Virus record (IMG/VR): IMGVR_UViG_3300047392_000215
Coordinates: 1-53,890 of that record
Source of the DNA: a virus
Lineage: Duplodnaviria; Caudoviricetes
Reading direction: 5' to 3' (one strand)
DNA: 53,890 nucleotides
Below, piece after piece: positions 1-53,890 of this stretch. The notes below the pieces were generated by a model. That model saw only the letters and a list, made by a program, of their open reading frames with translations, searched no databases and was not told the origin of the DNA. The number at the start of each line of letters is the position of its first letter. Positions within the stretch are counted from its first letter, which is position 1. The translations under genes were made by a program, and so were the position numbers.

Positions 1-262
1 GTCTATTTAACGCAATATCATAAATGAAATATAAATCATTTTCTAATTCGTCATATGAATCTAATTTTTCAGATATTAATTGAATGTCTAAATCCCATGT
101 GTTATTAATGTCGTACATAATTCCACCATAAAGAACAATTTTATATTTCTTATAGATTTTAGTTTTTCTTAATTCAATTAAGAATCTTCTAATTTTTATC
201 CAAGATGGTCGACTCCAAATTGTTTCAGTTGAAAACTCTCCTATTTGATAATAAAAATCCAT
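1..262 (-). CDS. Partial ORF (runs off the window edge, absent from the ORF track): putative Pol-beta-superfamily/minimal nucleotidyltransferase
   Basis: Manual translation from the ATG at 262, which overlaps the upstream TAA (TAATG): MDFYYQIGEFSTETIWSRPSWIKIRRFLIELRKTKIYKKYKIVLYGGIMYDINNTWDLDIQLISEKLDSYDELENDLYFIYDIALNR, open to the edge. LYGG-x9-DLDI fits hG[GS]x9-13Dh[DE]h. Confidence 0.65.
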   Translation of the reverse strand, partial: MDFYYQIGEFSTETIWSRPSWIKIRRFLIELRKTKIYKKYKIVLYGGIMYDINNTWDLDIQLISEKLDSYDELENDLYFIYDIALNR

Positions 263-2994
263 TATTCAATTGCTTGAGGTTTATTATGTGTTAATATTCC
301 ATTTGCAAAAAACATGTCATTTTCTTCAACATCAACTTTGTAAACAATATAGTGTCCTTTGGTTTCTACAATACTATTAACTTCTAATTCTACTCCATTT
401 TCTGTAAGTAACATATCTCCAGCTTTAACATCTATTGCATATCCTATTCTCCATAAACCATTAGATTTATAAAGATGCAAGTGGTCTTTTGTTGTAAATA
501 ATTTGCCATCGTTAAATGAAAGAACCACATTTACATTAAATGTTTGAATTCCTACAACTGTAACGTCTTCATCATAAATATCTAATTTATCAGATTTCCA
601 ATCAAATAGATCCTTTGTATTTTCCAACATTGGTAATCCAACAATTGTTTTACTATATAAAGCATCTCCAACTGAGACATCCTGAACATTTTTAAATGTT
701 CCATCATTCATCGATATTTTAGTTCCAAAAAGAACACAACCACCTCCTCCAGATCCTGGAGACGACGTGAAGCACGAAACTGCAGAATTTAATGCTCCAG
801 TAGAACTATTGTTACATTTTCTAGAAATTGATCCATCACTGAAATAATATGCTGAATTTGCATAGTTAATCTCTCCTGATCCAGCACTAGAACCGCCAAC
901 AAACAGATTTGCAATTGATGAAAAAGACTGTGATGTTGCAATAGAACTTTGATAATATCCATAAATGTTATAAGTACCATTACATGCTCCTACTGCGGTT
1001 GTTGCATATCCTAGTGGAGAATATGCATCTATGATATTAACGTAGTCTAACGTAAATATTGCTCCTAAAAAATCATTTCCATCCCAATATCTTCTAGATC
1101 CAGAATCTCTATACCAACCTGCAGAAGCATATGATGTTCCGCTGGAGTTATTTGAGATAAATGTAGAATTTGATAATGAAGATCCATCAATATAATAAGT
1201 TGATTTTGATAATCCACTGAATGCTCCATTTATTCCAGCATTAATTGCTGCAGAATTATAAACTAATTGAGTACTTAAATATGTTACACATGCTACTCTA
1301 CTTGTAAATTTAGCAGTCGCATTATCCCAATATCTTGCTACTCCTCCAGATGCATACCATCCAGAAGAAGCATATGCAGAACTCCCAGAGACATATAATT
1401 TATTATCATTAGTCGTCCATGTACTAGATTCAGTCCATGTTCCAGTTGCAAAATTACAACCAAATCCAATTGATGATGTAACACATGCATATCCAGATGA
1501 AGTTCCACCAAAAGCTAAACTAATTGTATTAATAGTAATAGGAGACCCAGCAGAACTCCATGTAAATCCATCTTCTCCTAAGAAACATAAATAAAATAAT
1601 CCATCTCCTTTACCAGTTGACGTTTCAAGTTGATTTGATGTTGTAGATCCAGTGTATATTAAAGTATCTGGTTCGCCATTATCAATATATGAAGATCTAA
1701 CTGCATCTTGACCTGATGTTCCATTAGAATAAGAATAGTATCCAGCTGCTGCAGGCTGCCAAGCTTTAAATGAAACCTGTGCAGATCCTAAAACTTCTCT
1801 ATTTGTTGTTGTTATGTTAATATTACCAACTCCTACAGGTGGCGGGGTAAGAAGAGAATCAGCATACACAGGATAATCAACATTTAAGTCAAATCCACAT
1901 AAATTTGGTAAAGTATAAGATACTGCTCCTTTTTGCCATGTTTTACCATTACAAAGATACCATCCTTTAAATTTGCCATTTGATAAACCAGCACCAAATG
2001 TAAATTGAATTACTGGAACCGTACTTGCGTATCCTGCAACTGCAGCTAAATCAAGCAGAATTCCTGTTTTATTTAAACTAAAATAAGTATCTGTAAATTC
2101 TTTATCAACTGCAATAATTGAACCGATTGGAAAAGTTGGTAGAACAACATTAATGTCCTTCCACATTACAACTCCAAGAGTACCACTCATATCATAATCG
2201 GTTGCTGCAATTTTATCAACGCCTGCTGTTCCGTAATAATTTGATTTAATTTGAACAGTGTTATTAAATGTTCCACCCGCATTAAAATTACTAACGCTTG
2301 ATTTTGGTTCAAATTTAAGCGGTGAAAGTTCTAACATTTCAGTTGAACTACTTTTAGCTGTTAAGAAAGAAAACTTTCTACCAGTTCCTGGTGAAAGTCT
2401 AAATTTCCAAATCGAATGAATTTCATTTTGAAATCCAGAATCTAAAACAGTGTTTATTATATTTCCATTATTGTCATTACCTGTGTGTAAATTGAAGAAA
2501 ACAGCCTTTCTTGTAGGAAGATTATTATTTCCTGGATCAATGTTTGACGTAACAAACATTAAATTATTTTGTAAAGGATCTTTAGTGTTATATCTTTTAA
2601 CAGTAGTTCCACTAGTGTCGTCTAAAACGTATTCAGTATCGGTATTTGCATATCCAATTCTAGTATTAGAAGGATCGGTCTTAGTTTCAATATATTTTAT
2701 TGTGATATTGTTTTGACCTGCTTTAGTGTTAGCTGCCCAATCTCCATAACCTTTAGGTCCAAATACACCTTGCACTCCTTGAAATCCTCTAAAACCAAAA
2801 TTACCTTGAGGTCCAGTAATTCCTTCAAATCCTAATTTACCTTCAAATCCTTGAGGTCCATAAGGCCCACCATTCGACAATTTAATTTGATCGAAATTCC
2901 AATTAAGTTTTTCAACTTTTTTGCTTGACCACCATAGAGATGGAGATGCTGGATCTAGATCGGATTTGTAAAGTTCTTTAATATCGATAGACAT
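262..2994 (-). CDS. Tail fibre-like protein: collagen-like stalk, tail-collar domain, repeated Cys/aromatic modules and C-terminal Hint domain
   Basis: 14 Gly-X-Y triplets (aa 43-84). Collar-type motifs FPIGSIIA...GWYLCNG...LPNL. Repeats YAS(S/A)GWY...RYWD. C-terminal CVLFGTKI...TKDH...FANGILTHN. Confidence 0.8.
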   Translation of the reverse strand: MSIDIKELYKSDLDPASPSLWWSSKKVEKLNWNFDQIKLSNGGPYGPQGFEGKLGFEGITGPQGNFGFRGFQGVQGVFGPKGYGDWAANTKAGQNNITIKYIETKTDPSNTRIGYANTDTEYVLDDTSGTTVKRYNTKDPLQNNLMFVTSNIDPGNNNLPTRKAVFFNLHTGNDNNGNIINTVLDSGFQNEIHSIWKFRLSPGTGRKFSFLTAKSSSTEMLELSPLKFEPKSSVSNFNAGGTFNNTVQIKSNYYGTAGVDKIAATDYDMSGTLGVVMWKDINVVLPTFPIGSIIAVDKEFTDTYFSLNKTGILLDLAAVAGYASTVPVIQFTFGAGLSNGKFKGWYLCNGKTWQKGAVSYTLPNLCGFDLNVDYPVYADSLLTPPPVGVGNINITTTNREVLGSAQVSFKAWQPAAAGYYSYSNGTSGQDAVRSSYIDNGEPDTLIYTGSTTSNQLETSTGKGDGLFYLCFLGEDGFTWSSAGSPITINTISLAFGGTSSGYACVTSSIGFGCNFATGTWTESSTWTTNDNKLYVSGSSAYASSGWYASGGVARYWDNATAKFTSRVACVTYLSTQLVYNSAAINAGINGAFSGLSKSTYYIDGSSLSNSTFISNNSSGTSYASAGWYRDSGSRRYWDGNDFLGAIFTLDYVNIIDAYSPLGYATTAVGACNGTYNIYGYYQSSIATSQSFSSIANLFVGGSSAGSGEINYANSAYYFSDGSISRKCNNSSTGALNSAVSCFTSSPGSGGGGCVLFGTKISMNDGTFKNVQDVSVGDALYSKTIVGLPMLENTKDLFDWKSDKLDIYDEDVTVVGIQTFNVNVVLSFNDGKLFTTKDHLHLYKSNGLWRIGYAIDVKAGDMLLTENGVELEVNSIVETKGHYIVYKVDVEENDMFFANGILTHNKPQAIE
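283..738 (-). other. Hint (intein-like/BIL-type) autoprocessing domain within the 910-aa protein
   Basis: Block A CVLFGTKISMNDG after a GGGG linker, block B TKDH, terminal VYKVDVE..FFANGILTHN. The +1 residue is Lys and there is no homing endonuclease. Confidence 0.9.
2743..2868 (-). repeat. Collagen-like (Gly-X-Y)14 repeat
   Basis: GPY GPQ GFE GKL GFE GIT GPQ GNF GFR GFQ GVQ GVF GPK GYG. Confidence 0.85.
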
Positions 2995-41903: not shown

Positions 41904-42148
41904 ATTTCCTGTAGTATTTTTTTTAATTCAACACATTTTTCATACTCTTCTAAAGATTCAAACCAGCTAATTATAAAATTTAATGCTTCTATCTTCTCCT
42001 CACGTGTTGAATTTCCTTTTAGTGCACCTTGTTTTTTATTAATGATTGCATGATATACTAAATCCATCATTTTGTCCTTTGGTAGATTTTGTACTGCATT
42101 AAAAAAATTCAGGGCATCATCATCGATTTCTTGATTATGATTTTCCAT
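41894..42148 (-). CDS. Small protein with a C-terminal UVR-like 'EEYEKC' motif (paralog 2)
   Basis: [21 protein letters not shown]; probable start MENHNQ (42148), overlapping the dnaJ stop. Confidence 0.65.
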
Positions 42149-42953
42149 TAGCCAATTCTTTAATTTTATTAACAAGATCGAGTTGTTCGTTATCTAAACA
42201 ATTAAAAATAGCATGCACTTTAATAAGTAAACTACCATGATCCTGTGTTTTATATATTGGCATTCCTTTGCTTGGAATTCTTAAAATTCTTTCAGAAGCC
42301 GTATTAGGTGGTATATTAACTTTGTATTTTCCAAATGGTGTTTCTACAGTCAGTTCAGTTCCTAAAATTAAATCATAGAATGGAACATAAGAATCCATCC
42401 AAATATCATGACCTTGTAAGATTAGATTGTCATCTGGTAGAATATTGATATTAATAATTAAGTCTCCACGAGGGGCAGTTGTGTTAAATCGATTGTAATC
42501 TCCGCGACCATAAACTTTTAATATCATGCCAGTATGTAGACCTGGTGCAAAGTCAACTCGAACTTTATCAAAACCTAAATCAAATACTCGACTAGTACCA
42601 TGATACGCATCATTAATATTAAATGTCGCATTGATTCTAACATCCTTTCCAGGAGCAGATTTTTCATGATTAAAATGTCTATCAAATTCAGTAGACCAGT
42701 TTCCGCCAAATTGACTGAATAGGTCATTGATATTAAAATTAGCACTTGAGAATTGGCGACTTAAATCATATTGTTGTCGCTTAGAAGGGTCTGAAAGAGT
42801 TTCATAGGCTTCTTGAACTGCCTGGAATTTCTCTTTAGATAATATGTCTGAATTTCGGTCAGGATGATATTGCTTCGCTAGATTGCGATATGCATTCTTA
42901 ATCTCGTCCTGCGTCGCCGTTTCCTGAACGCTTAATGTCTGATAATAACTCAT
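42135..42953 (-). CDS. DnaJ-class co-chaperone without zinc finger (CbpA-like)
   Basis: YYQTL...[15 protein letters not shown]...[16 protein letters not shown]-domain plus DnaJ C-terminal domain (RGDLII, ILG, KGMP, GSLLI). Confidence 0.95.
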
Positions 42954-43531: not shown

Positions 43532-43897
43532 TTAAGAAATTTTCACTTTTTTCTTTTCAGGCGCCTTACCAAATGACAGTGATAATAAACCATCTTCCAT
43601 AGATGCTGTTACCTCATCACTTGCGTCATCTGCTAATAGCCAACTTCTTTTAAAAGATTTTCTAAATGGATTCTCATCCTCTTTTGAAATTTCAGCAGAT
43701 ACGATTAATGTTCTACCGTCAATACTAACATCGACGTCTTGTTTTGAAAAACCAGGTAGAGAAATATAAAGAATTCCATTTTCAACAATGTATCCTTTAT
43801 CTTCTGTAAACATTGTAGTTTTCCAGATTGGTTGTTCGAATTTTCCAAAAATGTCTTCGCACATTTTGTCGAAACTTGTTCCTCTTGTTGTAAACAT
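43532..43897 (-). CDS. Small heat-shock protein (Hsp20/alpha-crystallin)
   Basis: LPGFSKQDVDVSIDGRTLIVS...SFKRSW.L...VTASMEDGLLSL. Confidence 0.93.
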   Translation of the reverse strand: MFTTRGTSFDKMCEDIFGKFEQPIWKTTMFTEDKGYIVENGILYISLPGFSKQDVDVSIDGRTLIVSAEISKEDENPFRKSFKRSWLLADDASDEVTASMEDGLLSLSFGKAPEKKKVKIS

Positions 43898-45328: not shown

Positions 45329-46273
45329 TTATTTTTGAACTTTCCAGTTAGGATTTTGTTTCGTGTTCTGCTTAGAATCCGCTTCTTTATACTGTTTTAA
45401 TAATTCAATAGTACTTGGTTCCATTGGAGCTTCATAATAGTCTTCAAAGATTCTTTGATAAACAATCGTAAGCACACCAAATAGAGTACCAGGCTCAGAA
45501 TTCATTTCAAACACATAAATATTTTCATCATTATCTTCTGCTAAATCAATTGCATAGAAGTCTAAATCTTGGTGAGCATCAGAGAAATATCTAATTGCTT
45601 TAATATGAGAGTCCTTGATGTCTTTAACATCTTTAAGAATATATGAAAAGTTAGTTTCCTTTTCTGGATCCTTCTTAGCGATATCTGCCGTTTCATCATC
45701 CATTGGAACTCTTTGGCACCATTGGATAATTTCATCTCTCCACATAAAATATCTATGCTCTTCAGCAATATCTATTTTTTCTGAGAAAGAAGAGAACTTA
45801 CTTAAATCTGCGTTTTCAAATTCTTTAGCATTATTAAATACAGTAATACCTAATCCACTATGTTCGTTGTCAGGTTTTGCAACAATAGGAAACTTAAGTT
45901 TACCAACATCATTTTTGTCGGTTGCAGTAGGAACAATATATCCACTATCAGCATGTTCCTTATAGAATTTTGCCTTTGAAACAATAGTTTCTCTAGCGTC
46001 AATTGTATTATAAACTTGGTATGGTTTAATCATACCGTTTTCTAAAAACTTTTCTAAAGTTTTTCTATCATAATTCAGGACGGGCATATCATCAAATTTT
46101 TCAATTGATTCCATGTCCATTGTTATAACATTCCAGTACTCTTTTGATTTGTATGCTGGACCCGTAATAAAAGAATCGTCAAGAACTTTTCTTCGAGTGA
46201 TACACACTTTCTTGAAATCATCCTTGACGATTGCTTCGTTTATAAATTGTTCAAATGTTAATAGAGATTTCAT
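45329..46273 (-). CDS. ATP-grasp (RimK-like) ligase with a putative capsid-targeting leader
   Basis: SKAKF, VPT, FPIVAKP...HSGLGI, EHR, DFYAIDL....IYVFEMNSEPG; starts MKSLLTFEQFINEA. Confidence 0.85.
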   Translation of the reverse strand: MKSLLTFEQFINEAIVKDDFKKVCITRRKVLDDSFITGPAYKSKEYWNVITMDMESIEKFDDMPVLNYDRKTLEKFLENGMIKPYQVYNTIDARETIVSKAKFYKEHADSGYIVPTATDKNDVGKLKFPIVAKPDNEHSGLGITVFNNAKEFENADLSKFSSFSEKIDIAEEHRYFMWRDEIIQWCQRVPMDDETADIAKKDPEKETNFSYILKDVKDIKDSHIKAIRYFSDAHQDLDFYAIDLAEDNDENIYVFEMNSEPGTLFGVLTIVYQRIFEDYYEAPMEPSTIELLKQYKEADSKQNTKQNPNWKVQK

Positions 46274-46290
46274 ACTCTATATATTAAATT

Positions 46291-46890
46291 TTATTTGTAG
46301 TGCTGACCACCTACCCAAAGTACAAAAGAACGACGAGTTCCTTTAGTAACAGGTTTTACTCTGTGCATTAAGTATGATGGAAATACAACAACATTTCCTT
46401 TTCCACGAGGTGCTTGGCGAATCCATTCTCCACCTCCCCATAATTCTAAATCTCCACCTTCATATTCATCAGCATCTGATAATTGAACAGTGATTGATAC
46501 TTTTCTTCTAGAAGCCATACCATTTCCAATATCTTGGTGCCATGTGTAATGACCTTCTTGGTCCGCATAGTACTCAGTATATTGAATAGATTCTGGTGCT
46601 GAAATTAAATCAAAACCCCAAAGAGCTTCATTAGCTTCGCTTGCCATTTGAGTTAACTTGTCATATAGCCAAGACCATTCATTAGATTGTGGAATCCATT
46701 TGATGCTAGAGCTTCTAACTGTTTTGTCTATTTCGGTTTCTTTACCACCGATAACAGTTGCTTTTTCAAAAGGAATTGTAGCAATGTCATTATAGATTTT
46801 GTTTAATTCGGCTGGTGTAAATCCTTTTTCAAACCAGTAATATTGTTGAGGATCATTTTCTGGTTGTACGTAAATGTTTTGAAAGTTCAT
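46291..46890 (-). CDS. 2OG-Fe(II) oxygenase (PKHD/prolyl-hydroxylase-like)
   Basis: YTWHQD, RKVSITVQLS, EYEGGDL, VFPSYLMHRVKPVTKGTRRSFVLW. Confidence 0.93.
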   Translation of the reverse strand: MNFQNIYVQPENDPQQYYWFEKGFTPAELNKIYNDIATIPFEKATVIGGKETEIDKTVRSSSIKWIPQSNEWSWLYDKLTQMASEANEALWGFDLISAPESIQYTEYYADQEGHYTWHQDIGNGMASRRKVSITVQLSDADEYEGGDLELWGGGEWIRQAPRGKGNVVVFPSYLMHRVKPVTKGTRRSFVLWVGGQHYK

Positions 46891-46893
46891 ATT

Positions 46894-47568
46894 TTATTTA
46901 TGTTTAGTTATTAAATTTTGTATTGCATTATCCCAATATTGATGTTCCTGTTGCATATGAGTATCTTCAAATTCTTTACTCGTAACCGATACATCTCCTG
47001 GAGTTTTAAGTCCTCTGATTTGATAGATTTTTCTACCTTTCAAATCTTTATTATAGAAATATAAGTAATCATCTCCAAAAAAGACTTTAAATTCATTTGG
47101 GATCTGAACATAATTAGCTTTCTTTAAAATCATCATACAACCAAATCCGTATACTCTACAATCTAGCTCTTCTAATTCTAAATTATCATTGTCAGAATTC
47201 ATTGAGTTAGAATTTAGACCGTCAATTATATTGTCATTATGTAATCCAATCATTCCAAAATCTGGATCAGTCTCTACAAATTTTTTAAAATTATTTAAGA
47301 GACAATCAACATTTAAAGAAATATCATCGTTCAACAGGCAAATATAATTGTTCTTTGCTAGCGTTGCTCCAATATTCCACGCTGGATTGACATAGATATT
47401 ATTTTTTACTCTAATCACTGTGATCCTAGGATCATTTGTAGAAAAGTTCGAATTTAGATTATCTATTATGATTAGTTCTATGTCCTTTCGGTCAGATTTA
47501 ATAATAGATTCTATTGTCCCTTTAATTTTATCAGATTTCCAAAGAGTCGGTATTATAAATGTTATCAT
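46894..47568 (-). CDS. Glycosyltransferase family 2 (GT-A)
   Basis: ITFIIPT, ELIIIDN, NPAWNIG, CLLNDDI, FGDD. Confidence 0.9.
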   Translation of the reverse strand: MITFIIPTLWKSDKIKGTIESIIKSDRKDIELIIIDNLNSNFSTNDPRITVIRVKNNIYVNPAWNIGATLAKNNYICLLNDDISLNVDCLLNNFKKFVETDPDFGMIGLHNDNIIDGLNSNSMNSDNDNLELEELDCRVYGFGCMMILKKANYVQIPNEFKVFFGDDYLYFYNKDLKGRKIYQIRGLKTPGDVSVTSKEFEDTHMQQEHQYWDNAIQNLITKHK

Positions 47569-49412
47569 AGTTCGTAAATTTCATTGACATATCCTTCTTG
47601 ATCGCCAAATCTACTTTCAACGGATAGTGGATTATTTGGAGATTCATTATAAGCCCAATCTTCTTTCCCTAACTCTTCAAATCTTGCTTTGATTTGCTCA
47701 TTATAATGGTACATAATTGTTTTAACTCTACGTTGAATATCTGCTCGACCTAAATTATGAGAGTTTGTAGTATTACCGTCATCATAAATAAATTGAAGGT
47801 AACCTAATCGTGGTATTCTCATCATCTTGGTTTTCAAGAATGTTCTAACGATTAATTCATAATCATCCGCAATTGTAAGGTCTCTACAGTGTCCGCCTAT
47901 TTCAAAATAAGTTTCTCTTCTCCATGCTCGAACATGGTTCGGAACTCCAACGATATGTCTAATTGTTTTTGGATTAATATTAGAAGATACTGCTACTTCA
48001 AAATCTTTGCCCATTACATTTTCAGTTACATAATGTCCATAACTAAATGCAAATCCTGGTCCATATTTTAATGAATTCCAGTTTTGATCGATTTCAGCAG
48101 AATCTGTATAAAAGAATCCTACATCTTTATGTTTTTGAGAAGCATTAAATAAATCTTCAGTACATGTTGGAACTAAATAATCGTCATGGTCTAATTCGGC
48201 TAAGATATAACCTCTAGTAAGAGTTGCACATCTCCATTTTACTTCACCAATATTACCTCCACTTTTTGGATTAAAATCAAATACCTTAACTCGTGGATCT
48301 AATGAAGCTATTTTCTGAGCAATTTTAAGAGTTGCTCCTCCATCGCTAGAATCATTTACCATAACCCATTCCCAGTTAGTATAAGTTTGTTTTGTTAATG
48401 ATTCGTAAGTCATCCATAGTTTCTCTCCAGTATTATAAATTGGAGTAAAATAAGAAATCAATTTAGAAATATCATTCTCTAACATTGCACCCATAGCGCA
48501 TTGATATGCTTTCTCTCCGGCTAAAGGATCTTTAGAATCAACATTGATCCACATTTTTCTTAATTCATATGGAGCATTCCATAGATTAGTTAAATCTGCT
48601 GGATTTTCATATGCACTTACAATTGCAATTGGTTTGATTCTAGTAATATCATTGTAGATATTTGAATCATCCTTAATATATTCAACATCAAGTTCACTTG
48701 ATTCCCAATTTACCGGGTTATTTGATTCTAGAACTGGAGTACCTTCTCCAATATAGAGAATCTTCGGTACTTTAGCTTTAGATGGTTTTTGTAAATAGTT
48801 ATAGTGTGATAGAATCTTGTCAATGAATAAGAATCCGTCTGGATTTACTTCATATACTTTTTCTATAAATTTACCATCTGCGTCATAACCACCTTTAAAA
48901 TCAAAATCATTGAAAACTGATCTGTGTAAGATGAATTGTGCTAAGTCAATTGACCTAACTTTCATATTTTCTGGTTTTGCGTATCTAACATCGACGCCTG
49001 TAAAATCTTTACCAGCAACATGTTGATTAAATACAATTCCAACATGATTTCCAGCTTCGCAGAATCCTACAAGAGCTTCAAAATTATCAAATAATTTTTC
49101 ATGCAAAACATTGTCATCATCTAGAGAATAGATCCAGCCCTCTTGAATATTATCAATAATGATTTTGTTCATTTGAGGATATAAGTAATCTCCACCTTGA
49201 GAAAACTCAAAATAGAGTTTAGCATTGTACTCTTCTTGTAATCTACCAAGAATTTCAGCATCAATATCTTTTAATCTTGTCGAGTCAAAGATAACATGCC
49301 ATCGTACTTGTAATTTACCATCTTTAGTCGGTAGAGATTCTCCAACTTTGATGATATTGTTTAATCTACTACATCTAGTTATGATGTGTAAGATCCTGTT
49401 TTTATCATTCAT
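47565..49412 (-). CDS. Tandem two-domain glycosyltransferase (GT-A x2)
   Basis: Domain 1 WIYSLDDDN...ADG; domain 2 ISYFTPIYN...QTYTNWEWVMVND...AELDHDD...ADDYEL. Confidence 0.9.
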   Translation of the reverse strand: MNDKNRILHIITRCSRLNNIIKVGESLPTKDGKLQVRWHVIFDSTRLKDIDAEILGRLQEEYNAKLYFEFSQGGDYLYPQMNKIIIDNIQEGWIYSLDDDNVLHEKLFDNFEALVGFCEAGNHVGIVFNQHVAGKDFTGVDVRYAKPENMKVRSIDLAQFILHRSVFNDFDFKGGYDADGKFIEKVYEVNPDGFLFIDKILSHYNYLQKPSKAKVPKILYIGEGTPVLESNNPVNWESSELDVEYIKDDSNIYNDITRIKPIAIVSAYENPADLTNLWNAPYELRKMWINVDSKDPLAGEKAYQCAMGAMLENDISKLISYFTPIYNTGEKLWMTYESLTKQTYTNWEWVMVNDSSDGGATLKIAQKIASLDPRVKVFDFNPKSGGNIGEVKWRCATLTRGYILAELDHDDYLVPTCTEDLFNASQKHKDVGFFYTDSAEIDQNWNSLKYGPGFAFSYGHYVTENVMGKDFEVAVSSNINPKTIRHIVGVPNHVRAWRRETYFEIGGHCRDLTIADDYELIVRTFLKTKMMRIPRLGYLQFIYDDGNTTNSHNLGRADIQRRVKTIMYHYNEQIKARFEELGKEDWAYNESPNNPLSVESRFGDQEGYVNEIYEL

Positions 49413-49417
49413 ATTTA

Positions 49418-50344
49418 TTAAATTACGTCAAAAAAGAACATGTGAAAGAATCTTGCATTCTCTATAGCATCGCCAAAGTATTTACTTGGCGCATGAATTT
49501 GTTTAGCATCAAATAGAACTAAACGGTTGTACACATTACCAACCTCATCAATTTTGTCAAAATGAGTTCCATCATAGAAGTTCATTTCAGCATTTTTACC
49601 TTTAAATGAAGCAACATAAGCTTCTTCATCTAGGGAAGGGTCATCAAATCTCTTTCTTCCAGTAATTTTACTAGAATAAGTAGAAGTACCTGTATCGAAT
49701 GGAGCATCCTTAGTTAAGAATACCATACCTGCATAATTTTGAGTATCTACATGAAATACTAATGGATCATTTGCTACACAATATTGGAATACACCATTTG
49801 CATATCTTTCATAATTCCAATTAGTAATTTCTCGACCAATGATTTTTTCTAACTTCTCTTTAGTACCTTCTAAGATAAATCTTTCAGCACTTCGTTTACC
49901 TTTATGATAATTAGAAGGATTAAAATCTAGATTTTTCATAGCAAAATCTCTGACAAAATCAGGATTAGCGTAGAAGTTATCAACAACAATTAGACCTTTA
50001 TTCTCATTTGCAAATCCAGAATGGAATGCGATATAGTTATCAATGTTTCCGCAGTTGTATTTGAAATCTCCAAAATGCACGGTAATATCCTTACCCGCTC
50101 TAAAAATGAATTCAACTCCAACTTTAGTGTCTTTACCTGGATAGTAGTCCTGTACATCAGGTCGATGTGTTCTTTCGAATGATATTTCTATTTCATTGAT
50201 ACTCAATGAACTAACTGGTTTAAAGTGGTCACCATCCTTGACAACGATCCAACCTTTTGCTTTGTAATAAACACTTTCTTGTTTTTCAATTGAATCAAAA
50301 TACCAAAATACGTTCTGGTTTAAAGTGTAATGAGAGGTAATCAT
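49418..50344 (-). CDS. 2OG-Fe(II) oxygenase-like protein (DUF6445-like) with an N-terminal accessory domain
   Basis: IVVDNFY.NPD.VR, HVD, YAGMVFLT, GT, NVYNRLVLFD...HA, R..HMFFF. Confidence 0.8.
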   Translation of the reverse strand: MITSHYTLNQNVFWYFDSIEKQESVYYKAKGWIVVKDGDHFKPVSSLSINEIEISFERTHRPDVQDYYPGKDTKVGVEFIFRAGKDITVHFGDFKYNCGNIDNYIAFHSGFANENKGLIVVDNFYANPDFVRDFAMKNLDFNPSNYHKGKRSAERFILEGTKEKLEKIIGREITNWNYERYANGVFQYCVANDPLVFHVDTQNYAGMVFLTKDAPFDTGTSTYSSKITGRKRFDDPSLDEEAYVASFKGKNAEMNFYDGTHFDKIDEVGNVYNRLVLFDAKQIHAPSKYFGDAIENARFFHMFFFDVI

Positions 50345-50379
50345 ATTTTATAGTATTATAGTGTAAAATTCTAACTTGT

Positions 50380-51408
50380 TTATCTTCTCTTTTTATCGAA
50401 GTTTATATATGTATCTGGATTTACCATGAGCTCTCCGCCAATTGATTTCATACCATGAATAATCTCATCCTTAGTAGATCCTTTATCAACTAATTCAACT
50501 ACAACTTGCTCGAAGAATTGGTTATGTTTTTCTAGATCCGTAAACTTCCAATTCTTAGGACAGCATCCACAAAAATATTGCTCTAATCTGATATAACCAT
50601 ATTTGCAACTAAATTCTGGTCCAGCAAATCCACATGGTTTTAAGCTTACATAATATGAATCCCAATCTAGTTTAAAAGGCCAATGTTCATCATGTACAAA
50701 GGCTCCAAATTTCATGAAAGCTGATTTAAGTTGAAATCCTTCAGCCTCTTTTTCGATTTCAGCTCGACCCCAATTTGGGTTTCCTTTAACTTCAATTGCG
50801 TCTCCATTCTCATCAAAGAATTCAGGCAATGGAAAGATTCCAGTATCATAGAATCTTTGGTTACGTCGAAAAACTGGGTTATTTGTATATTCTTTTTTCG
50901 AGAGTAACCAATATTGAATATCACTAAATGATTTCTCTTCTAAGAGAACCTCTTCTTTTAACCAATATGAATATCCAAATTGTCTGTCATCAATATCGTT
51001 TTGGTATCTTCGTAAAACCATCTGGTCTAATTCTGGAGTCTGATCAAATAAGTCAATCATTCTCTCAATCCAGTTATTTTCTAATTTGCTAATCATTTGA
51101 GGAAGACAAGTCCAATCTCCTTCTAGGAAAAGAACATACTCAACATGCTCAGTCATTCTATTTAGTTGATTGATTCCAGCACCAACTCCTAAATTCTTTT
51201 TAGAAAGTTCAAGGTGCCATGAGATATTAGAATACTGATTAAATAATCTTTCAGTCACTTCTAATAATTCATCATTATATGAATTTAAGAATATGTACCA
51301 ATCTCCGTCAAAATTAGGATTAGCATCTAGAAAAGAGACAATAGTTCTTTCTAGATATTCTGCTCTAAGTTGAGCATCATGAGACATTGTTGCTATACAG
51401 AATTTCAT
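50380..51408 (-). CDS. Putative GT-A fold glycosyltransferase with a Cys-rich C-terminal segment
   Basis: YLERTIVSF, NLGVGAGIN, YVLFLEGDW, YTNNP; C-terminal C..C..CGCC cluster. Confidence 0.7.
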   Translation of the reverse strand: MKFCIATMSHDAQLRAEYLERTIVSFLDANPNFDGDWYIFLNSYNDELLEVTERLFNQYSNISWHLELSKKNLGVGAGINQLNRMTEHVEYVLFLEGDWTCLPQMISKLENNWIERMIDLFDQTPELDQMVLRRYQNDIDDRQFGYSYWLKEEVLLEEKSFSDIQYWLLSKKEYTNNPVFRRNQRFYDTGIFPLPEFFDENGDAIEVKGNPNWGRAEIEKEAEGFQLKSAFMKFGAFVHDEHWPFKLDWDSYYVSLKPCGFAGPEFSCKYGYIRLEQYFCGCCPKNWKFTDLEKHNQFFEQVVVELVDKGSTKDEIIHGMKSIGGELMVNPDTYINFDKKRR

Positions 51409-51525: not shown

Positions 51526-52662
51526 TTATATTTTAACTGGTCGATTGTGTGTGATTAAACCATTTGCAATATACGTATCCGTTGTTTCAACGTTCATATC
51601 ATATACAATTTTTCTTGGTTTTCCAGGATCTGTTTCATCTCCTTCAACATGTTCATAAAAATCAATTGAAACAATTTCAATACTATTTCCTTCCTTATCA
51701 ACTAGAAAATCTCCAACCTGAACATTTTTTGCCTGTTCAAATTTCCAAGCATCTCCTCTTTTAATAAAATGTGCATGTGAATCAGAAGATTCAAGTAAAC
51801 CATTATTAAAAATATAAGTTTGCGCAGTTGCAATTGGAATAATAGATTTAACCCTAACTTCAGTTTCAGTTAAGTTTAATTCTTCAGTTGACCACCCAAC
51901 AATTGTATCGTCTTCAGGAGCATCACTAATTTTTACACCTTTTAGAACATCACCAACCCGGATTTTTTCAACTAACTTATGAGTTCCATCAGCCATTTCA
52001 ATACTAGTTCCTTTAGTTAAACAAGCACCTGCACCTAAACATTGTTCGCCATATGAATAACCACCATAATCCAATCTTTCCCAACAAGATGGTACATATT
52101 GTCCATAATAGTAGTCAGACCAATAGATACCGTCGCAATCTGTTCCAGAAAAATGCTGATAATAATATAAATAATTAATATAACATGTTGGACCTCCTGA
52201 TGGAGGATTATAAGCAAAATTAGCACCTAGATAATAAGTATCTTGCCATCCATTTGTTGGAACATAATAACTAACGCTAGCATTATATGACCAGATTTCA
52301 TAAGGATTCCGTCTCATCCAATAGCTAAAAGCCCAGTTTGCGTCAGGTATTGCATTTAAACTTACCCATGAATTATTATTAGATGTAACAGCATAAGATT
52401 GCGGAGGATAAAAAGCACCGGCAGTATATCCACTAGACCATGGTGATGTAATTGCAACTTGACCGGATCCAGAATCAACCGCAAGAGTCCAACATTTACT
52501 ATCAATCCAACTATATGTCGCAAATGCCATATTTCCAGTTGATCCGTATCCAGCAAACATACCTCTAATTGATGATGCTGTTGTAAATCCACCATAACCA
52601 CATTCAACTAACGACCTTAATTGTGAAAGTGAATATCCGTCGTAATATGTTAATTTACTCAT
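51526..52662 (-). CDS. Putative fibre-tip adhesin with a C-terminal Hint domain
   Basis: N-terminal YSLSQLRSL..GG pattern typical of proteins encoded after S74 fibres. VSLNAIPDANWAFSYW Ig/B-repeat-like motif and a Tyr/Cys-rich segment. CLTKGTSIEMADG...SDSH...YIANGLITHN. Confidence 0.7.
   Translation of the reverse strand: MSKLTYYDGYSLSQLRSLVECGYGGFTTASSIRGMFAGYGSTGNMAFATYSWIDSKCWTLAVDSGSGQVAITSPWSSGYTAGAFYPPQSYAVTSNNNSWVSLNAIPDANWAFSYWMRRNPYEIWSYNASVSYYVPTNGWQDTYYLGANFAYNPPSGGPTCYINYLYYYQHFSGTDCDGIYWSDYYYGQYVPSCWERLDYGGYSYGEQCLGAGACLTKGTSIEMADGTHKLVEKIRVGDVLKGVKISDAPEDDTIVGWSTEELNLTETEVRVKSIIPIATAQTYIFNNGLLESSDSHAHFIKRGDAWKFEQAKNVQVGDFLVDKEGNSIEIVSIDFYEHVEGDETDPGKPRKIVYDMNVETTDTYIANGLITHNRPVKI
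51544..52023 (-). other. Hint (intein-like/BIL-type) domain within the 378-aa protein
   Basis: Block A CLTKGT after GAGA, block B SDSH, terminal VYDMNVE..TYIANGLITHN; the +1 residue is Arg. Confidence 0.9.
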
Positions 52663-53429: not shown

Positions 53430-53890
53430 TTATTTATTTTCTAAGTTTTTAACTTTTTCTGATAATTCTTTAATTGCTTCAATTAAGACTCCAATTAGGT
53501 CATTATAACTTACCTTTTTATATCCATCTACTCCGTCAACTACAATATCTGGTAGGACTTGTTCGATTTCTTGTGCAATTACACCAGTTCTTAATCTATC
53601 TTTTAGAGCATTCTTAAGTTTAAATTGAACACCTCTAAGAGATTCAACTGTTTGTAATGCATTATCTATAGTTTCAATATCTTCTTTTAATCTAGAGTCA
53701 GAACTAATAGTAACATCAACAAATGTTGGTGAATCAACTGTTCTAGTGTATTGATTCATTGCATTTGCATAACCATTATTTGGAATATAAGAAGTCCAGT
53801 TTGTATTTGTTATAATTGCTCTCCACCCATAAAAAGTACCATTGGTTACTCTTCTAATATTAAAACTGTCACCGTGGAATTGATGTTGTA
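53430..53890 (-). CDS. C-terminal part of a tail fibre with a peptidase S74 intramolecular chaperone (5' end outside the window)
   Basis: Frame is open from the window edge (QHQFHGDSFNIRRVTNGTFYGWRAIITNTNW...MNQYTRTVDSPTF); SSDSRLKEDI...GVIAQEIEQVLP...LIEAIKEL. Confidence 0.9.
   Translation of the reverse strand, partial: QHQFHGDSFNIRRVTNGTFYGWRAIITNTNWTSYIPNNGYANAMNQYTRTVDSPTFVDVTISSDSRLKEDIETIDNALQTVESLRGVQFKLKNALKDRLRTGVIAQEIEQVLPDIVVDGVDGYKKVSYNDLIGVLIEAIKELSEKVKNLENK

What the first reader, a model, noticed from the sequence alone, without database searches (positions are those of the whole stretch)
262..2994. Collagen/collar tail fibre ends in an intact Hint domain after a GGGG linker: candidate self-activating fibre-ligation system
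Seen: the last ~160 aa form a complete Hint fold (Cys1, TxxH, terminal HN) with no endonuclease. It is preceded by SSPGSGGGG and followed only by KPQAIE. Established: standard protein splicing needs Cys/Ser/Thr at +1; Hint domains lacking it (BIL, Hedgehog) form a thioester at their N-terminal junction that is hydrolysed or transferred to an outside nucleophile. Inference: the distal fibre end could become a Gly-thioester able to ligate to a partner protein, small molecule or host surface group. Alternatively the Hint is a self-removing folding chaperone, like S74. A second Hint protein 51 kb away argues for a selected function rather than a selfish intein.
Basis: partly seen in the sequence, partly recalled or inferred. 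Interest (0 to 1): 0.82.

Follow-up and report, generated by a model that had tools for sequence, protein, structure and literature searches.

The report
Self-processing Hint cap on phage fibre
A collagen-like fibre protein of an uncultured large phage really does end in an intact intein-like (Hint) domain set between a glycine linker and a short lysine-bearing tail, a widespread end-module that probably cuts itself off and that I found described in no paper.

Summary
ORF 262-2994 (minus strand, 910 aa) has a conserved N-terminal adaptor, 13 collagen G-X-Y triplets, a body of no known family, an 11-residue Ser/Pro/Gly linker, a 152-residue Hint (Cys753, T835-K-D-H838, His903-Asn904) and the tail KPQAIE. 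The model has pLDDT 89.7. Its nearest solved relatives are BIL domains: Tetrahymena BIL2, then C. thermocellum BIL.

The Hint is not a selfish intein. All 31 aligned orthologues keep it, and it is more conserved than the fibre body. A second, different Hint-capped protein lies 51 kb away, and a related 139-kb phage contig has the same pair.

The cap belongs to a large family: 1562 clusters at E<=0.001. In 121 terminal members no protein ends at the Asn, only 3 have Cys/Ser/Thr at +1, and 119 carry a lysine in the tail.

My reading: a self-removing type-A-BIL-like cap whose thioester is probably captured by its own tail lysine. Ligation to an outside partner has no support here. No chemistry was shown.

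The scan met this glycine-Hint-lysine module before on other DNA. Six literature searches found no paper describing it.

The parts
262..2994 (-). Fibre gene, 910 aa plus stop
   Evidence: ORF list and translation. It starts 3 nt after the stop of the upstream 1595-aa gene. It lies in a tail/baseplate module.
2869..2994 (-). Conserved N-terminal adaptor, residues 1-42
   Evidence: Mean pairwise identity is 73% among 31 orthologues. A similar start motif opens tandem paralogous fibre genes in related viral contigs.
2749..2868 (-). Collagen-like stretch, 13 G-X-Y triplets, residues 43-82
   Evidence: Every Gly is invariant. The family profile hits collagen chains at E 2e-18. Pfam Collagen scores E 3e-4, below its cut-off.
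772..2748 (-). Fibre body, residues 83-741, ending at conserved Cys741
   Evidence: No Pfam family and no solved relative by sequence. Hint-less homologues end 0-2 residues after the equivalent Cys. Of 34 distinct Hint-less C-termini, 15 have a Cys in the last four residues.
739..771 (-). Ser/Pro/Gly linker FTSSPGSGGGG, residues 742-752
   Evidence: A linker is present in all 31 orthologues: 3 residues in one (P0035) and 10-23 in the other 30, nearly always ending in Gly. Gly is at -1 in 54 of 122 family caps.
283..738 (-). Hint (type-A BIL-like) domain, residues 753-904: Cys753, T835xxH838, His903-Asn904
265..282 (-). C-terminal tail KPQAIE with Lys905 at +1 (codon 280-282)
   Evidence: Lys is at +1 or +2 in 31 of 31 orthologues. 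Tails are 5-20 aa and otherwise variable.
51526..52662 (-). Second Hint-capped protein, 378 aa: Hint at 51544-52023, tail RPVKI with Lys at +4
   Evidence: My Hint HMM scores E 3e-36. All 42 homologues with a complete Hint keep Cys1, THN and a tail Lys, at +4 in 38 and at +2 in 4.
53430..53888 (-). C-terminal end of another fibre, carrying a Peptidase_S74 intramolecular chaperone (ORF runs off the contig)
   Evidence: Pfam PF13884 at E 1e-17, and many PHROG tail-fibre families. It shows the architectural slot that the Hint occupies in the other fibre.

Best explanation
The protein is a trimeric, collagen-stalked virion fibre, most likely a tail fibre, of an uncultured large myophage. Its neighbouring gene has relatives mainly in phages of Bacteroidota. 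Its last 158 residues are a self-processing end cap: a type-A-BIL-like Hint between a Gly linker and a Lys-bearing tail.

Shown: the fold, the full catalytic set for both junctions, its strict conservation, and the absence of a +1 Cys/Ser/Thr.

Inferred, step 1: Cys753 attacks the Gly752 carbonyl in an N-S acyl shift, giving a Gly-thioester.

Inferred, step 2: Asn904 cyclises and cuts the Hint from the tail.

Inferred, step 3: the thioester is resolved, the free Hint leaves, and the mature fibre ends at ...GGGG.

For step 3 I favour capture by an amine of the cap's own tail. The conserved lysine side chain would act as in Tetrahymena BIL2, or the freed alpha-amine would act as in type-A BILs. 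The short tail would then end up amide-linked to the fibre tip. Plain hydrolysis is the simpler alternative.

I put about 0.75 on self-removal by any route, and about 0.3-0.35 on the tail lysine as the acceptor.

The cap's benefit is unknown. The likeliest is a transient C-terminal cap or assembly aid, in the slot that Peptidase_S74 holds on another fibre of the same phage.
For: Fold and kinship. The AlphaFold model has pLDDT 89.7. Foldseek's top hits are BIL2 6y75 (E 1e-10) and 2lwy. The family profile scores 1e-17 on BIL2 and 1.7e-12 on 2lwy, with canonical inteins weaker.

Catalytic set. Cys753, Asp837, His838, His903 and Asn904 are invariant in 31 of 31 orthologues at 33-70% identity.

Selection. 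Mean pairwise identity is 59% in the Hint and 42-54% in the body segments. Hint and body identities correlate at r=0.83, and the Hint is the more conserved part in 92% of 465 pairs.

Both junctions seem to matter. None of 194 terminal caps ends at the Asn, so at least one residue always follows it. All 11 single-residue tails are Lys.

Tail lysine. It is present in 119 of 121 caps (41 expected by chance), 31 of 31 (16.8 expected) and 42 of 42 (16 expected). Its position shifts with subfamily: +1 or +2, +4, or +5 to +7. That fits a flexible side chain better than a fixed fold contact.

Nucleophile at +1. Cys/Ser/Thr occurs in 3 of 121, 1 of 31 and 2 of 42, and Pro in 18 of 42.

Published chemistry. 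Type-A BILs cleave at both ends and can ligate through the freed amine (PMC4031507, passages). BIL2 forms a Lys-epsilon isopeptide (PMC8616854, section 2.4).

Module boundary. Hint-less homologues stop 0-2 residues after the Cys equivalent to Cys741, so linker plus Hint plus tail is an add-on module.
Against: No chemistry was measured and no virion proteome was seen. Pfam Hint models score only below their cut-offs.

Of 68 homologous fibre ORFs from viral contigs, 43 are complete and Hint-less. The cap is therefore dispensable for the fold, and its benefit is unexplained.

The lysine could be kept for another reason, for example to promote Asn cyclisation or hydrolysis. With Lys at +1, as here, alpha- and epsilon-amine capture cannot be told apart from sequence.

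Pro at +1 in 18 of 42 members of the second family may hinder Asn cyclisation. That point is my recollection from intein engineering and was not checked.

The model's tail is less confident: mean pLDDT 74 for the last eight residues, His903 to the end.

I could not test whether the Hint oligomerises.
Confidence: 0.55

Rival explanations
1. Self-removing cap with plain hydrolysis. The Hint acts like the S74 intramolecular chaperone: it helps or times folding and assembly of the fibre tip, then cuts itself off. That leaves ...GGGG-COOH. The tail lysine would have only a catalytic or structural role.
For: The Hint occupies the C-terminal slot that Peptidase_S74 holds on another fibre of this phage. 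BIL domains give mostly cleavage products (PMC4031507 and PMC7664689, passages). Hint-less homologues end right at the module boundary.
Against: It does not explain why His-Asn is kept in 121 of 122 caps, why a residue always follows the Asn (0 of 194 empty tails) or why that tail always holds a Lys. The 43 complete Hint-less homologues fold without it. No trimerisation of Hints is known, and I could not test it.
Confidence: 0.25
2. Trans-ligation. The Gly-thioester is passed to an outside nucleophile: a lysine of another virion protein, a small molecule or a host surface group. The fibre tip becomes covalently attached.
For: The nearest solved relative, BIL2, is reported to conjugate its N-terminal ubiquitin-like domain to several substrates (PMC8616854). 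The same cap sits on many short proteins with BACON, PKD or DUF5977 binding-type domains, which could be decoration proteins in need of attachment.
Against: No candidate partner was found. The invariant lysine in cis would compete with any outside amine. The conserved Asn and tail are not needed for simple transfer. A distal fibre tip locked covalently to something would be an odd receptor binder.
Confidence: 0.1
3. The Hint is retained in the mature fibre as a non-cleaving structural or binding domain.
For: Nothing shows cleavage. PHROG 38766, which matches the Hint, is annotated 'virion structural protein'.
Against: Invariance of exactly the catalytic residues (Cys1, block-B His, His-Asn) in 31 of 31 orthologues, and 116 of 122 Cys1 and 121 of 122 His-Asn in family caps, is hard to explain without catalysis.
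Confidence: 0.06
4. A selfish or neutral intein-like insert near the gene's end, spreading horizontally and merely tolerated.
For: Presence is patchy among distant fibre homologues: 22 with a Hint against 43 complete without, among 68 ORFs. One Hint-less relative, P0036, ends in a Gly/Ser linker plus a short tail, like an empty site.
Against: There is no endonuclease and no +1 nucleophile. The Hint is fixed in all 31 orthologues, co-diverges with its host (r=0.83) and is better conserved than the host. It sits at the end of a variable protein, not inside a conserved active site. The two Hints in the window share only 32% identity.
Confidence: 0.04

Closest known systems
Type-A bacterial intein-like (BIL) domains, e.g. 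Clostridium thermocellum BIL (PDB 2lwy)
   Same: Both are mini Hint folds with Cys1, a block-B His and a C-terminal His-Asn, and neither has a +1 Cys/Ser/Thr. The family profile scores E 1.7e-12 on 2lwy and Foldseek scores E 4e-8. Published chemistry: cleavage at both ends, with minor ligation through the freed amine (PMC4031507).
   Different: Here the domain is a terminal cap on phage virion proteins, with a Gly-rich linker before it and a 1-41-residue tail (median 6) holding a nearly invariant lysine. I found neither feature described for BILs in the passages I read. The original BIL papers (Amitai 2003, Dassa 2004) were not readable here.
BIL2 of the Tetrahymena thermophila BUBL1 locus (PDB 6y75, 6tmm)
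   Same: It is the best solved match by sequence (E 1e-17) and by fold (E 1e-10, TM 0.76 by target). It is also preceded by Gly-Gly. It is reported to form a Lys-epsilon isopeptide with the upstream C-terminus (PMC8616854).
   Different: BIL2 is eukaryotic and sits between two ubiquitin-like domains. Its acceptor lysine lies in a folded downstream domain or in other proteins. Here only a few residues follow the Hint.
Peptidase_S74 intramolecular chaperone of phage fibres and tailspikes
   Same: It is also a self-cleaving module at the C-terminal end of fibre proteins. One is present on another fibre in this window.
   Different: The fold and chemistry are unrelated: S74 uses a Ser-Lys dyad and forms a trimeric chaperone. 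The fibre studied here has no S74 match.
Class-1 mini-inteins and the Hedgehog Hh-C domain
   Same: They share the Hint fold: gp41-1 intein E 7e-8 and Hh-C 1at0 E 3e-6.
   Different: Inteins need Cys/Ser/Thr at +1 and sit inside conserved host proteins. Hh-C is followed by a sterol-recognition region. Neither applies here.

Membership tests
HINT superfamily | Hint fold | tested here: met
   AlphaFold model pLDDT 89.7. Foldseek found 61 PDB matches at E<=0.001, and all those listed are BIL, intein or Hedgehog chains.
HINT superfamily | N-terminal Cys/Ser nucleophile and block-B TxxH | tested here: met
   Cys753 and T835-K-D-H838. Cys753 and His838 are invariant in 31 of 31 orthologues.
Type-A BIL domain | C-terminal His-Asn with no Cys/Ser/Thr at +1 | tested here: met
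   His903-Asn904 followed by Lys905. Of 31 orthologues, 30 lack a +1 nucleophile.
Type-A BIL domain | Closer in sequence to known BILs than to inteins | tested here: met
   The profile scores 1e-17 on BIL2 and 1.7e-12 on 2lwy. The best intein-named chain, 8w20, scores 1.9e-9 and the other inteins 7e-8 or weaker.
Type-A BIL domain | Autocatalytic N- and C-terminal cleavage | not testable with these tools
   This needs expression and mass spectrometry.
Canonical class-1 intein | Cys/Ser/Thr at +1 for trans-esterification | tested here: not met
   Lys905 is at +1. Cys/Ser/Thr at +1 occurs in 1 of 31 orthologues and 3 of 121 family caps.
Canonical class-1 intein | Insertion inside a conserved host protein, often with a homing endonuclease | tested here: not met
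   The Hint is 152 aa with no endonuclease. Only 6 residues follow it, and it sits after the end point of the Hint-less homologues.
Hedgehog/Hog autoprocessing domain | Hint followed by a sterol- or adduct-recognition region | tested here: not met
   Only KPQAIE follows the Hint.
PT-HINT (pretoxin Hint, PF07591) | Pfam score above cut-off and a toxin domain downstream | tested here: not met
   12.9 bits against a cut-off of 27.7. There is no downstream domain.
Peptidase_S74 intramolecular chaperone | Match to PF13884 | tested here: not met
   No hit at E<=1 in the 910-aa protein. The ORF at 53430-53888 does match, at E 1e-17.
Collagen-like triple helix | Uninterrupted G-X-Y repeats | tested here: met
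   Thirteen triplets at residues 43-82 with all Gly invariant. The profile hits collagen at E 2e-18. Pfam is below its cut-off, 20.9 against 27.2 bits.
Phage tail collar domain (PF07484) | Pfam match | tested here: not met
   Not listed at E<=1. That the conserved GWYLCNG...PNL stretch (residue 344 onward) resembles the collar consensus is only my recollection.

The most novel reading that the evidence does not exclude
The conserved tail lysine is the built-in nucleophile of a lysine-resolved form of protein splicing. The Gly-thioester made by the Hint would be captured by the Lys side chain, in cis or between the three chains of the fibre. Asn cyclisation would then free the Hint. The fibre tip would be left joined by an isopeptide bond to a short peptide, or cross-linked to its neighbours. 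If true, more than a thousand families of phage virion proteins mature by an ATP-free Gly-to-Lys ligation so far reported only for one ciliate BIL domain.
Probability: 0.3. Interest if true: 0.85.

Novelty: new variant of a known kind. Interest (0 to 1): 0.6.

Why it matters
Self-cleaving ends of phage fibres are so far known as Peptidase_S74 chaperones. A second, unrelated and very common self-processing end built on intein chemistry would change how fibre and decoration proteins are annotated, since the mature protein would be about 160 residues shorter. It would also change how their assembly is understood. The invariant lysine offers a simple test of whether nature uses Hint domains for Gly-to-Lys ligation outside one ciliate locus. 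A 152-residue domain that needs only a Gly linker and one lysine could also serve as a protein-ligation tool.

Tried and rejected
Literature. Six searches found no paper on terminal Hint caps of phage fibres: 'Hint domain' + 'tail fiber', 'bacterial intein-like' + phage, intein-like/C-terminal/tail fiber/autoproteolytic, intein/tail fiber/self-cleavage, 'Hint domain' + bacteriophage and vB_DsoM_AD1. The passages I read concern ordinary inteins in terminases or helicases, or S74 chaperones. Subscription papers were not searchable. The Dassa 2004 paper is not held. I opened no supplements, so virion mass-spectrometry tables of the jumbo phages may hold relevant peptides.

Oligomerisation is untested.

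The ESM Atlas gave no usable hit, and its own model has pLDDT 0.50. The profile found no solved relative for the body.

A downstream chaperone gene replacing the Hint in Hint-less relatives was rejected. The next gene is usually another paralogous fibre in both groups.

Deposited phages. tblastn with the fibre found only Hint-region matches, in 13 records: enterobacterial jumbo phages and Phage NCTB. The second Hint protein found only NCTB and a helicase intein. No cultured close relative is available.

By-sequence and by-place look-ups of the scan's earlier notes gave nothing for this genome.
Full report
WHAT IS THERE

The window is a 53,890-base virus record with all long ORFs on the minus strand. 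ORF 262..2994 (-) encodes 910 aa. By translation it has these parts:
- a conserved N-terminal stretch, residues 1-42;
- 13 collagen G-X-Y triplets, residues 43-82;
- a body, residues 83-741, ending at Cys741;
- the linker FTSSPGSGGGG, residues 742-752;
- a 152-residue Hint, from Cys753 to Asn904, with T835-K-D-H838 and His903-Asn904;
- the tail KPQAIE.

Pfam alone is weak. Intein_splicing scores E 0.019, PT-HINT E 0.14 and Collagen E 3e-4, all below their cut-offs. Other tests are clear:
- PHROG 38766 scores 2e-10 on residues 732-905.
- A profile of 45 family members hits the BIL2 domain of Tetrahymena (6tmm/6y75) at 1e-17 and the C. thermocellum BIL (2lwy) at 1.7e-12. Ordinary inteins score weaker.
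- The AlphaFold model of residues 733-910 has mean pLDDT 89.7.
- Foldseek ranks BIL2, 2lwy, mini-inteins and Hedgehog Hh-C in that order.

'Collar' is not: Pfam gave no collar hit at E<=1.

CONTEXT

The gene follows two giant genes of 1595 and 1225 aa. It lies about 14 kb from a baseplate wedge gene and about 22 kb from a Phage_base_V spike gene. The 1225-aa neighbour has relatives in 31 phage records: Prevotella 15, uncultured 6, Tenacibaculum 5, Chryseobacterium 2, Sphingomonas 2 and Flavobacterium 1. So this is a fragment of a large myophage, probably of Bacteroidota.

A six-frame scan with my Hint HMM finds exactly two Hints in the window. The second closes a 378-aa protein at 51526..52662 (-): Hint residues 214-373, tail RPVKI. 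The ORF that runs off the contig at 53430-53888 is the end of another fibre with a Peptidase_S74 chaperone, at E 1e-17.

IS THE HINT SELECTED OR SELFISH?

Of the 64 homologues found, I aligned P0001 with 30 full-length ones. I dropped an N-terminally cut identical copy (P0003), two fragments (P0014, P0034) and the distant set P0036-P0066. P0003 and P0014 also end in the Hint.
- All 31 aligned sequences keep Cys753, Asp837, His838, His903 and Asn904.
- Mean pairwise identity is 59% in the Hint and 42-54% in the three body segments.
- Hint and body identities correlate at r=0.83 over 465 pairs, and the Hint is the more conserved part in 92% of pairs.
- The second protein has 45 homologues. All 42 with a complete Hint keep Cys1 and THN. 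The other three (P0221, P0246, P0252) are cut short inside the Hint, and P0258 loses the Hint match part-way and runs on into unrelated sequence.
- A related 139-kb contig carries orthologues of both genes about 50 kb apart.
- The two Hints in the window share only 32% identity.

This is vertical inheritance under purifying selection, not a homing element.

THE FAMILY

A full scan of 1.84 billion representatives with residues 740-910 gave 1562 clusters at E<=0.001 and 308 at E<=1e-10. The top 150 listed comprised four P0001 orthologues and 146 others. In those 146 my HMM found 143 full Hints in 132 proteins:
- 122 Hints are terminal (tail <=50 aa, median 6, minimum 1).
- 116 of 122 start with Cys.
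- 121 of 122 end in His-Asn.
- 54 of 122 have Gly at -1.
- 3 of 122 have Cys/Ser/Thr at +1.
- 101 of 122 have Lys at +1 or +2.

Counting any lysine in the tail gives 119 of 121 (41 expected by chance), 31 of 31 (16.8 expected) and 42 of 42 (16 expected). None of the 194 tails is empty. All 11 one-residue tails are Lys.

The lysine's position depends on the subfamily. It is at +1 or +2 in the fibre's family, and at +4 in 38 of 42 members of the second family. It is at +5 to +7 in a 'PCHVEGT...LCHN' subfamily on related fibres.

I scanned 83 of the 146 with Pfam, as many as the tool's residue limit per call allowed. The N-terminal parts are mostly unknown. Some carry BACON, DUF5977, PKD, collagen, Calx-beta or VWA domains.

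Deposited genomes hold few examples. There are 13 records, all enterobacterial jumbo phages plus Phage NCTB, where annotators wrote 'intein domain protein' or 'putative tail protein'.

HINT-LESS RELATIVES

I examined 69 viral-contig loci that encode fibre relatives and found a fibre ORF in 68 of them.
- 22 ORFs end in a Hint by my HMM.
- 3 are cut by the locus end.
- 43 are complete without a Hint, giving 34 distinct C-termini. One of these, L015, ends in a divergent Hint-like VVHNT.
- In two further loci the Hint is on the adjacent paralogous fibre.

In the alignment the Hint-less proteins stop 0-2 residues after the Cys equivalent to Cys741. Of the 34 distinct ends, 15 have a Cys in the last four residues. 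So linker, Hint and tail form an add-on module, and the fibre fold does not need it. In both groups the next gene is usually another paralogous fibre, not a chaperone.

MECHANISM

Published knowledge, from passages I read:
- BILs lack the +1 nucleophile and give mainly cleavage products (PMC7664689).
- Type-A BILs have His-Asn. They form the N-terminal thioester and cleave the C-terminus by Asn cyclisation, and the freed amine can attack the thioester (PMC4031507).
- BIL2 makes a Lys-epsilon isopeptide with the upstream C-terminus, and can conjugate it to several substrates (PMC8616854, section 2.4).

From this and the anatomy I infer thioester formation at Gly752|Cys753, Asn904 cyclisation and release of the Hint.

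Three conserved features are not needed for N-terminal cleavage alone: the His-Asn, the residue that always follows the Asn, and the lysine. They suggest that the tail takes part, most simply as the amine that resolves the thioester. Pro at +1 in 18 of 42 members of the second family makes the alpha-amine a poorer candidate there and the lysine side chain a better one. None of this chemistry was shown. Hydrolysis remains a serious alternative, and what the cap is good for is open.

COMPARISON AND NOVELTY

The domain passes the tests I could run for a type-A BIL-like Hint. It fails those for a canonical intein, a Hog domain, PT-HINT and S74. Type-A BIL chemistry is known. I did not find in print its use as a Gly-linker / Hint / Lys-tail end cap on phage virion proteins. 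Nor did I find the near-invariant lysine described. The library covers open-access papers only.

Earlier notes of this scan describe the same module on other genomes. I had derived the pattern, before reading them, and they agree with it. This window adds several points:
- the strict orthologue conservation;
- the Hint-less boundary at the conserved Cys;
- the pairing with an S74 fibre in one phage;
- the conserved two-gene arrangement;
- the link from the tail lysine to the BIL2 isopeptide chemistry.

NOT DONE

So the fold of the fibre body and any oligomerisation of the Hint are untested. I opened no supplements.

Noticed in passing
window 45329-51408 (-): A protein-modification cluster lies next to the second Hint protein. 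It holds an ATP-grasp of the R2K clade (45329-46273), a 2OG-Fe(II) oxygenase (46291-46890), three GT2 glycosyltransferase genes (46894-47568, 47565-49412, 50380-51408) and a DUF6445 protein (49418-50344). It could hydroxylate, glycosylate or extend the collagen-like or Ser/Pro-rich parts of the fibres.
   Followed up: partly
window 53430-53888 (-): This is the end of a further fibre gene with a Peptidase_S74 intramolecular chaperone, cut by the contig end. The phage therefore uses two unrelated self-processing fibre ends.
   Followed up: partly
window 42135-42953 and 43532-43897 (-): The phage encodes a full DnaJ (J domain plus C-terminal domain) and an Hsp20-like protein.
   Followed up: no
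P0036; L068/L069 6001-7545: Some Hint-less fibre relatives end in a Gly/Ser/Pro-rich linker. P0036 has a short acidic tail after it, and L068 and L069 have none. They look like a cap site without the Hint, either lost or never gained.
   Followed up: partly
tails of both Hint families: Beyond the lysine, tails tend to end in a hydrophobic residue plus Gln or Glu, for example ...NVQ...IQE...EFQ and KPQAIE. The last residue is Gln or Glu in 18 of 31 and 22 of 42. Part of this may be shared ancestry. It is otherwise unexplained.
   Followed up: partly
L029, L036-L038, L041-L054 (12 of these), L060, L065: This is a second cap subfamily on related 1110-1169-aa fibres. It has Pro instead of Gly at -1, the start CHVEGT, the end LCHN, and an acidic tail with its single Lys at +5 to +7.
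   Followed up: no
P0088, P0128, P0094: Tandem Hint arrays occur in which one Hint's His-Asn is followed by Lys, or by Ile-Lys-Pro-Pro-Pro, and then the Cys1 of the next Hint.
   Followed up: no
P0073, P0140: Two PKD-repeat proteins with a type-IX secretion sorting domain matched residues ~55-115 of the 171-residue Hint query 7-9 times each, at E 4e-31 and 3e-20. This similarity between the Hint's middle and PKD-like repeats is unexplained.
   Followed up: no
L005-L071, gene after the fibre: In most related contigs the fibre is followed by one or more paralogous fibre genes that open with the same N-terminal adaptor motif (M.INLKQI...KLDKVNYNFDQL). In the window and its two closest relatives the next gene is instead an unrelated ~205-aa protein with no Pfam family.
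   Followed up: partly
G004 contig, L074 and L080: A phage whose fibre relative lacks the cap has other Hint matches elsewhere. Two of them have an in-frame stop (TGA, TAA) inside the match.
   Followed up: no
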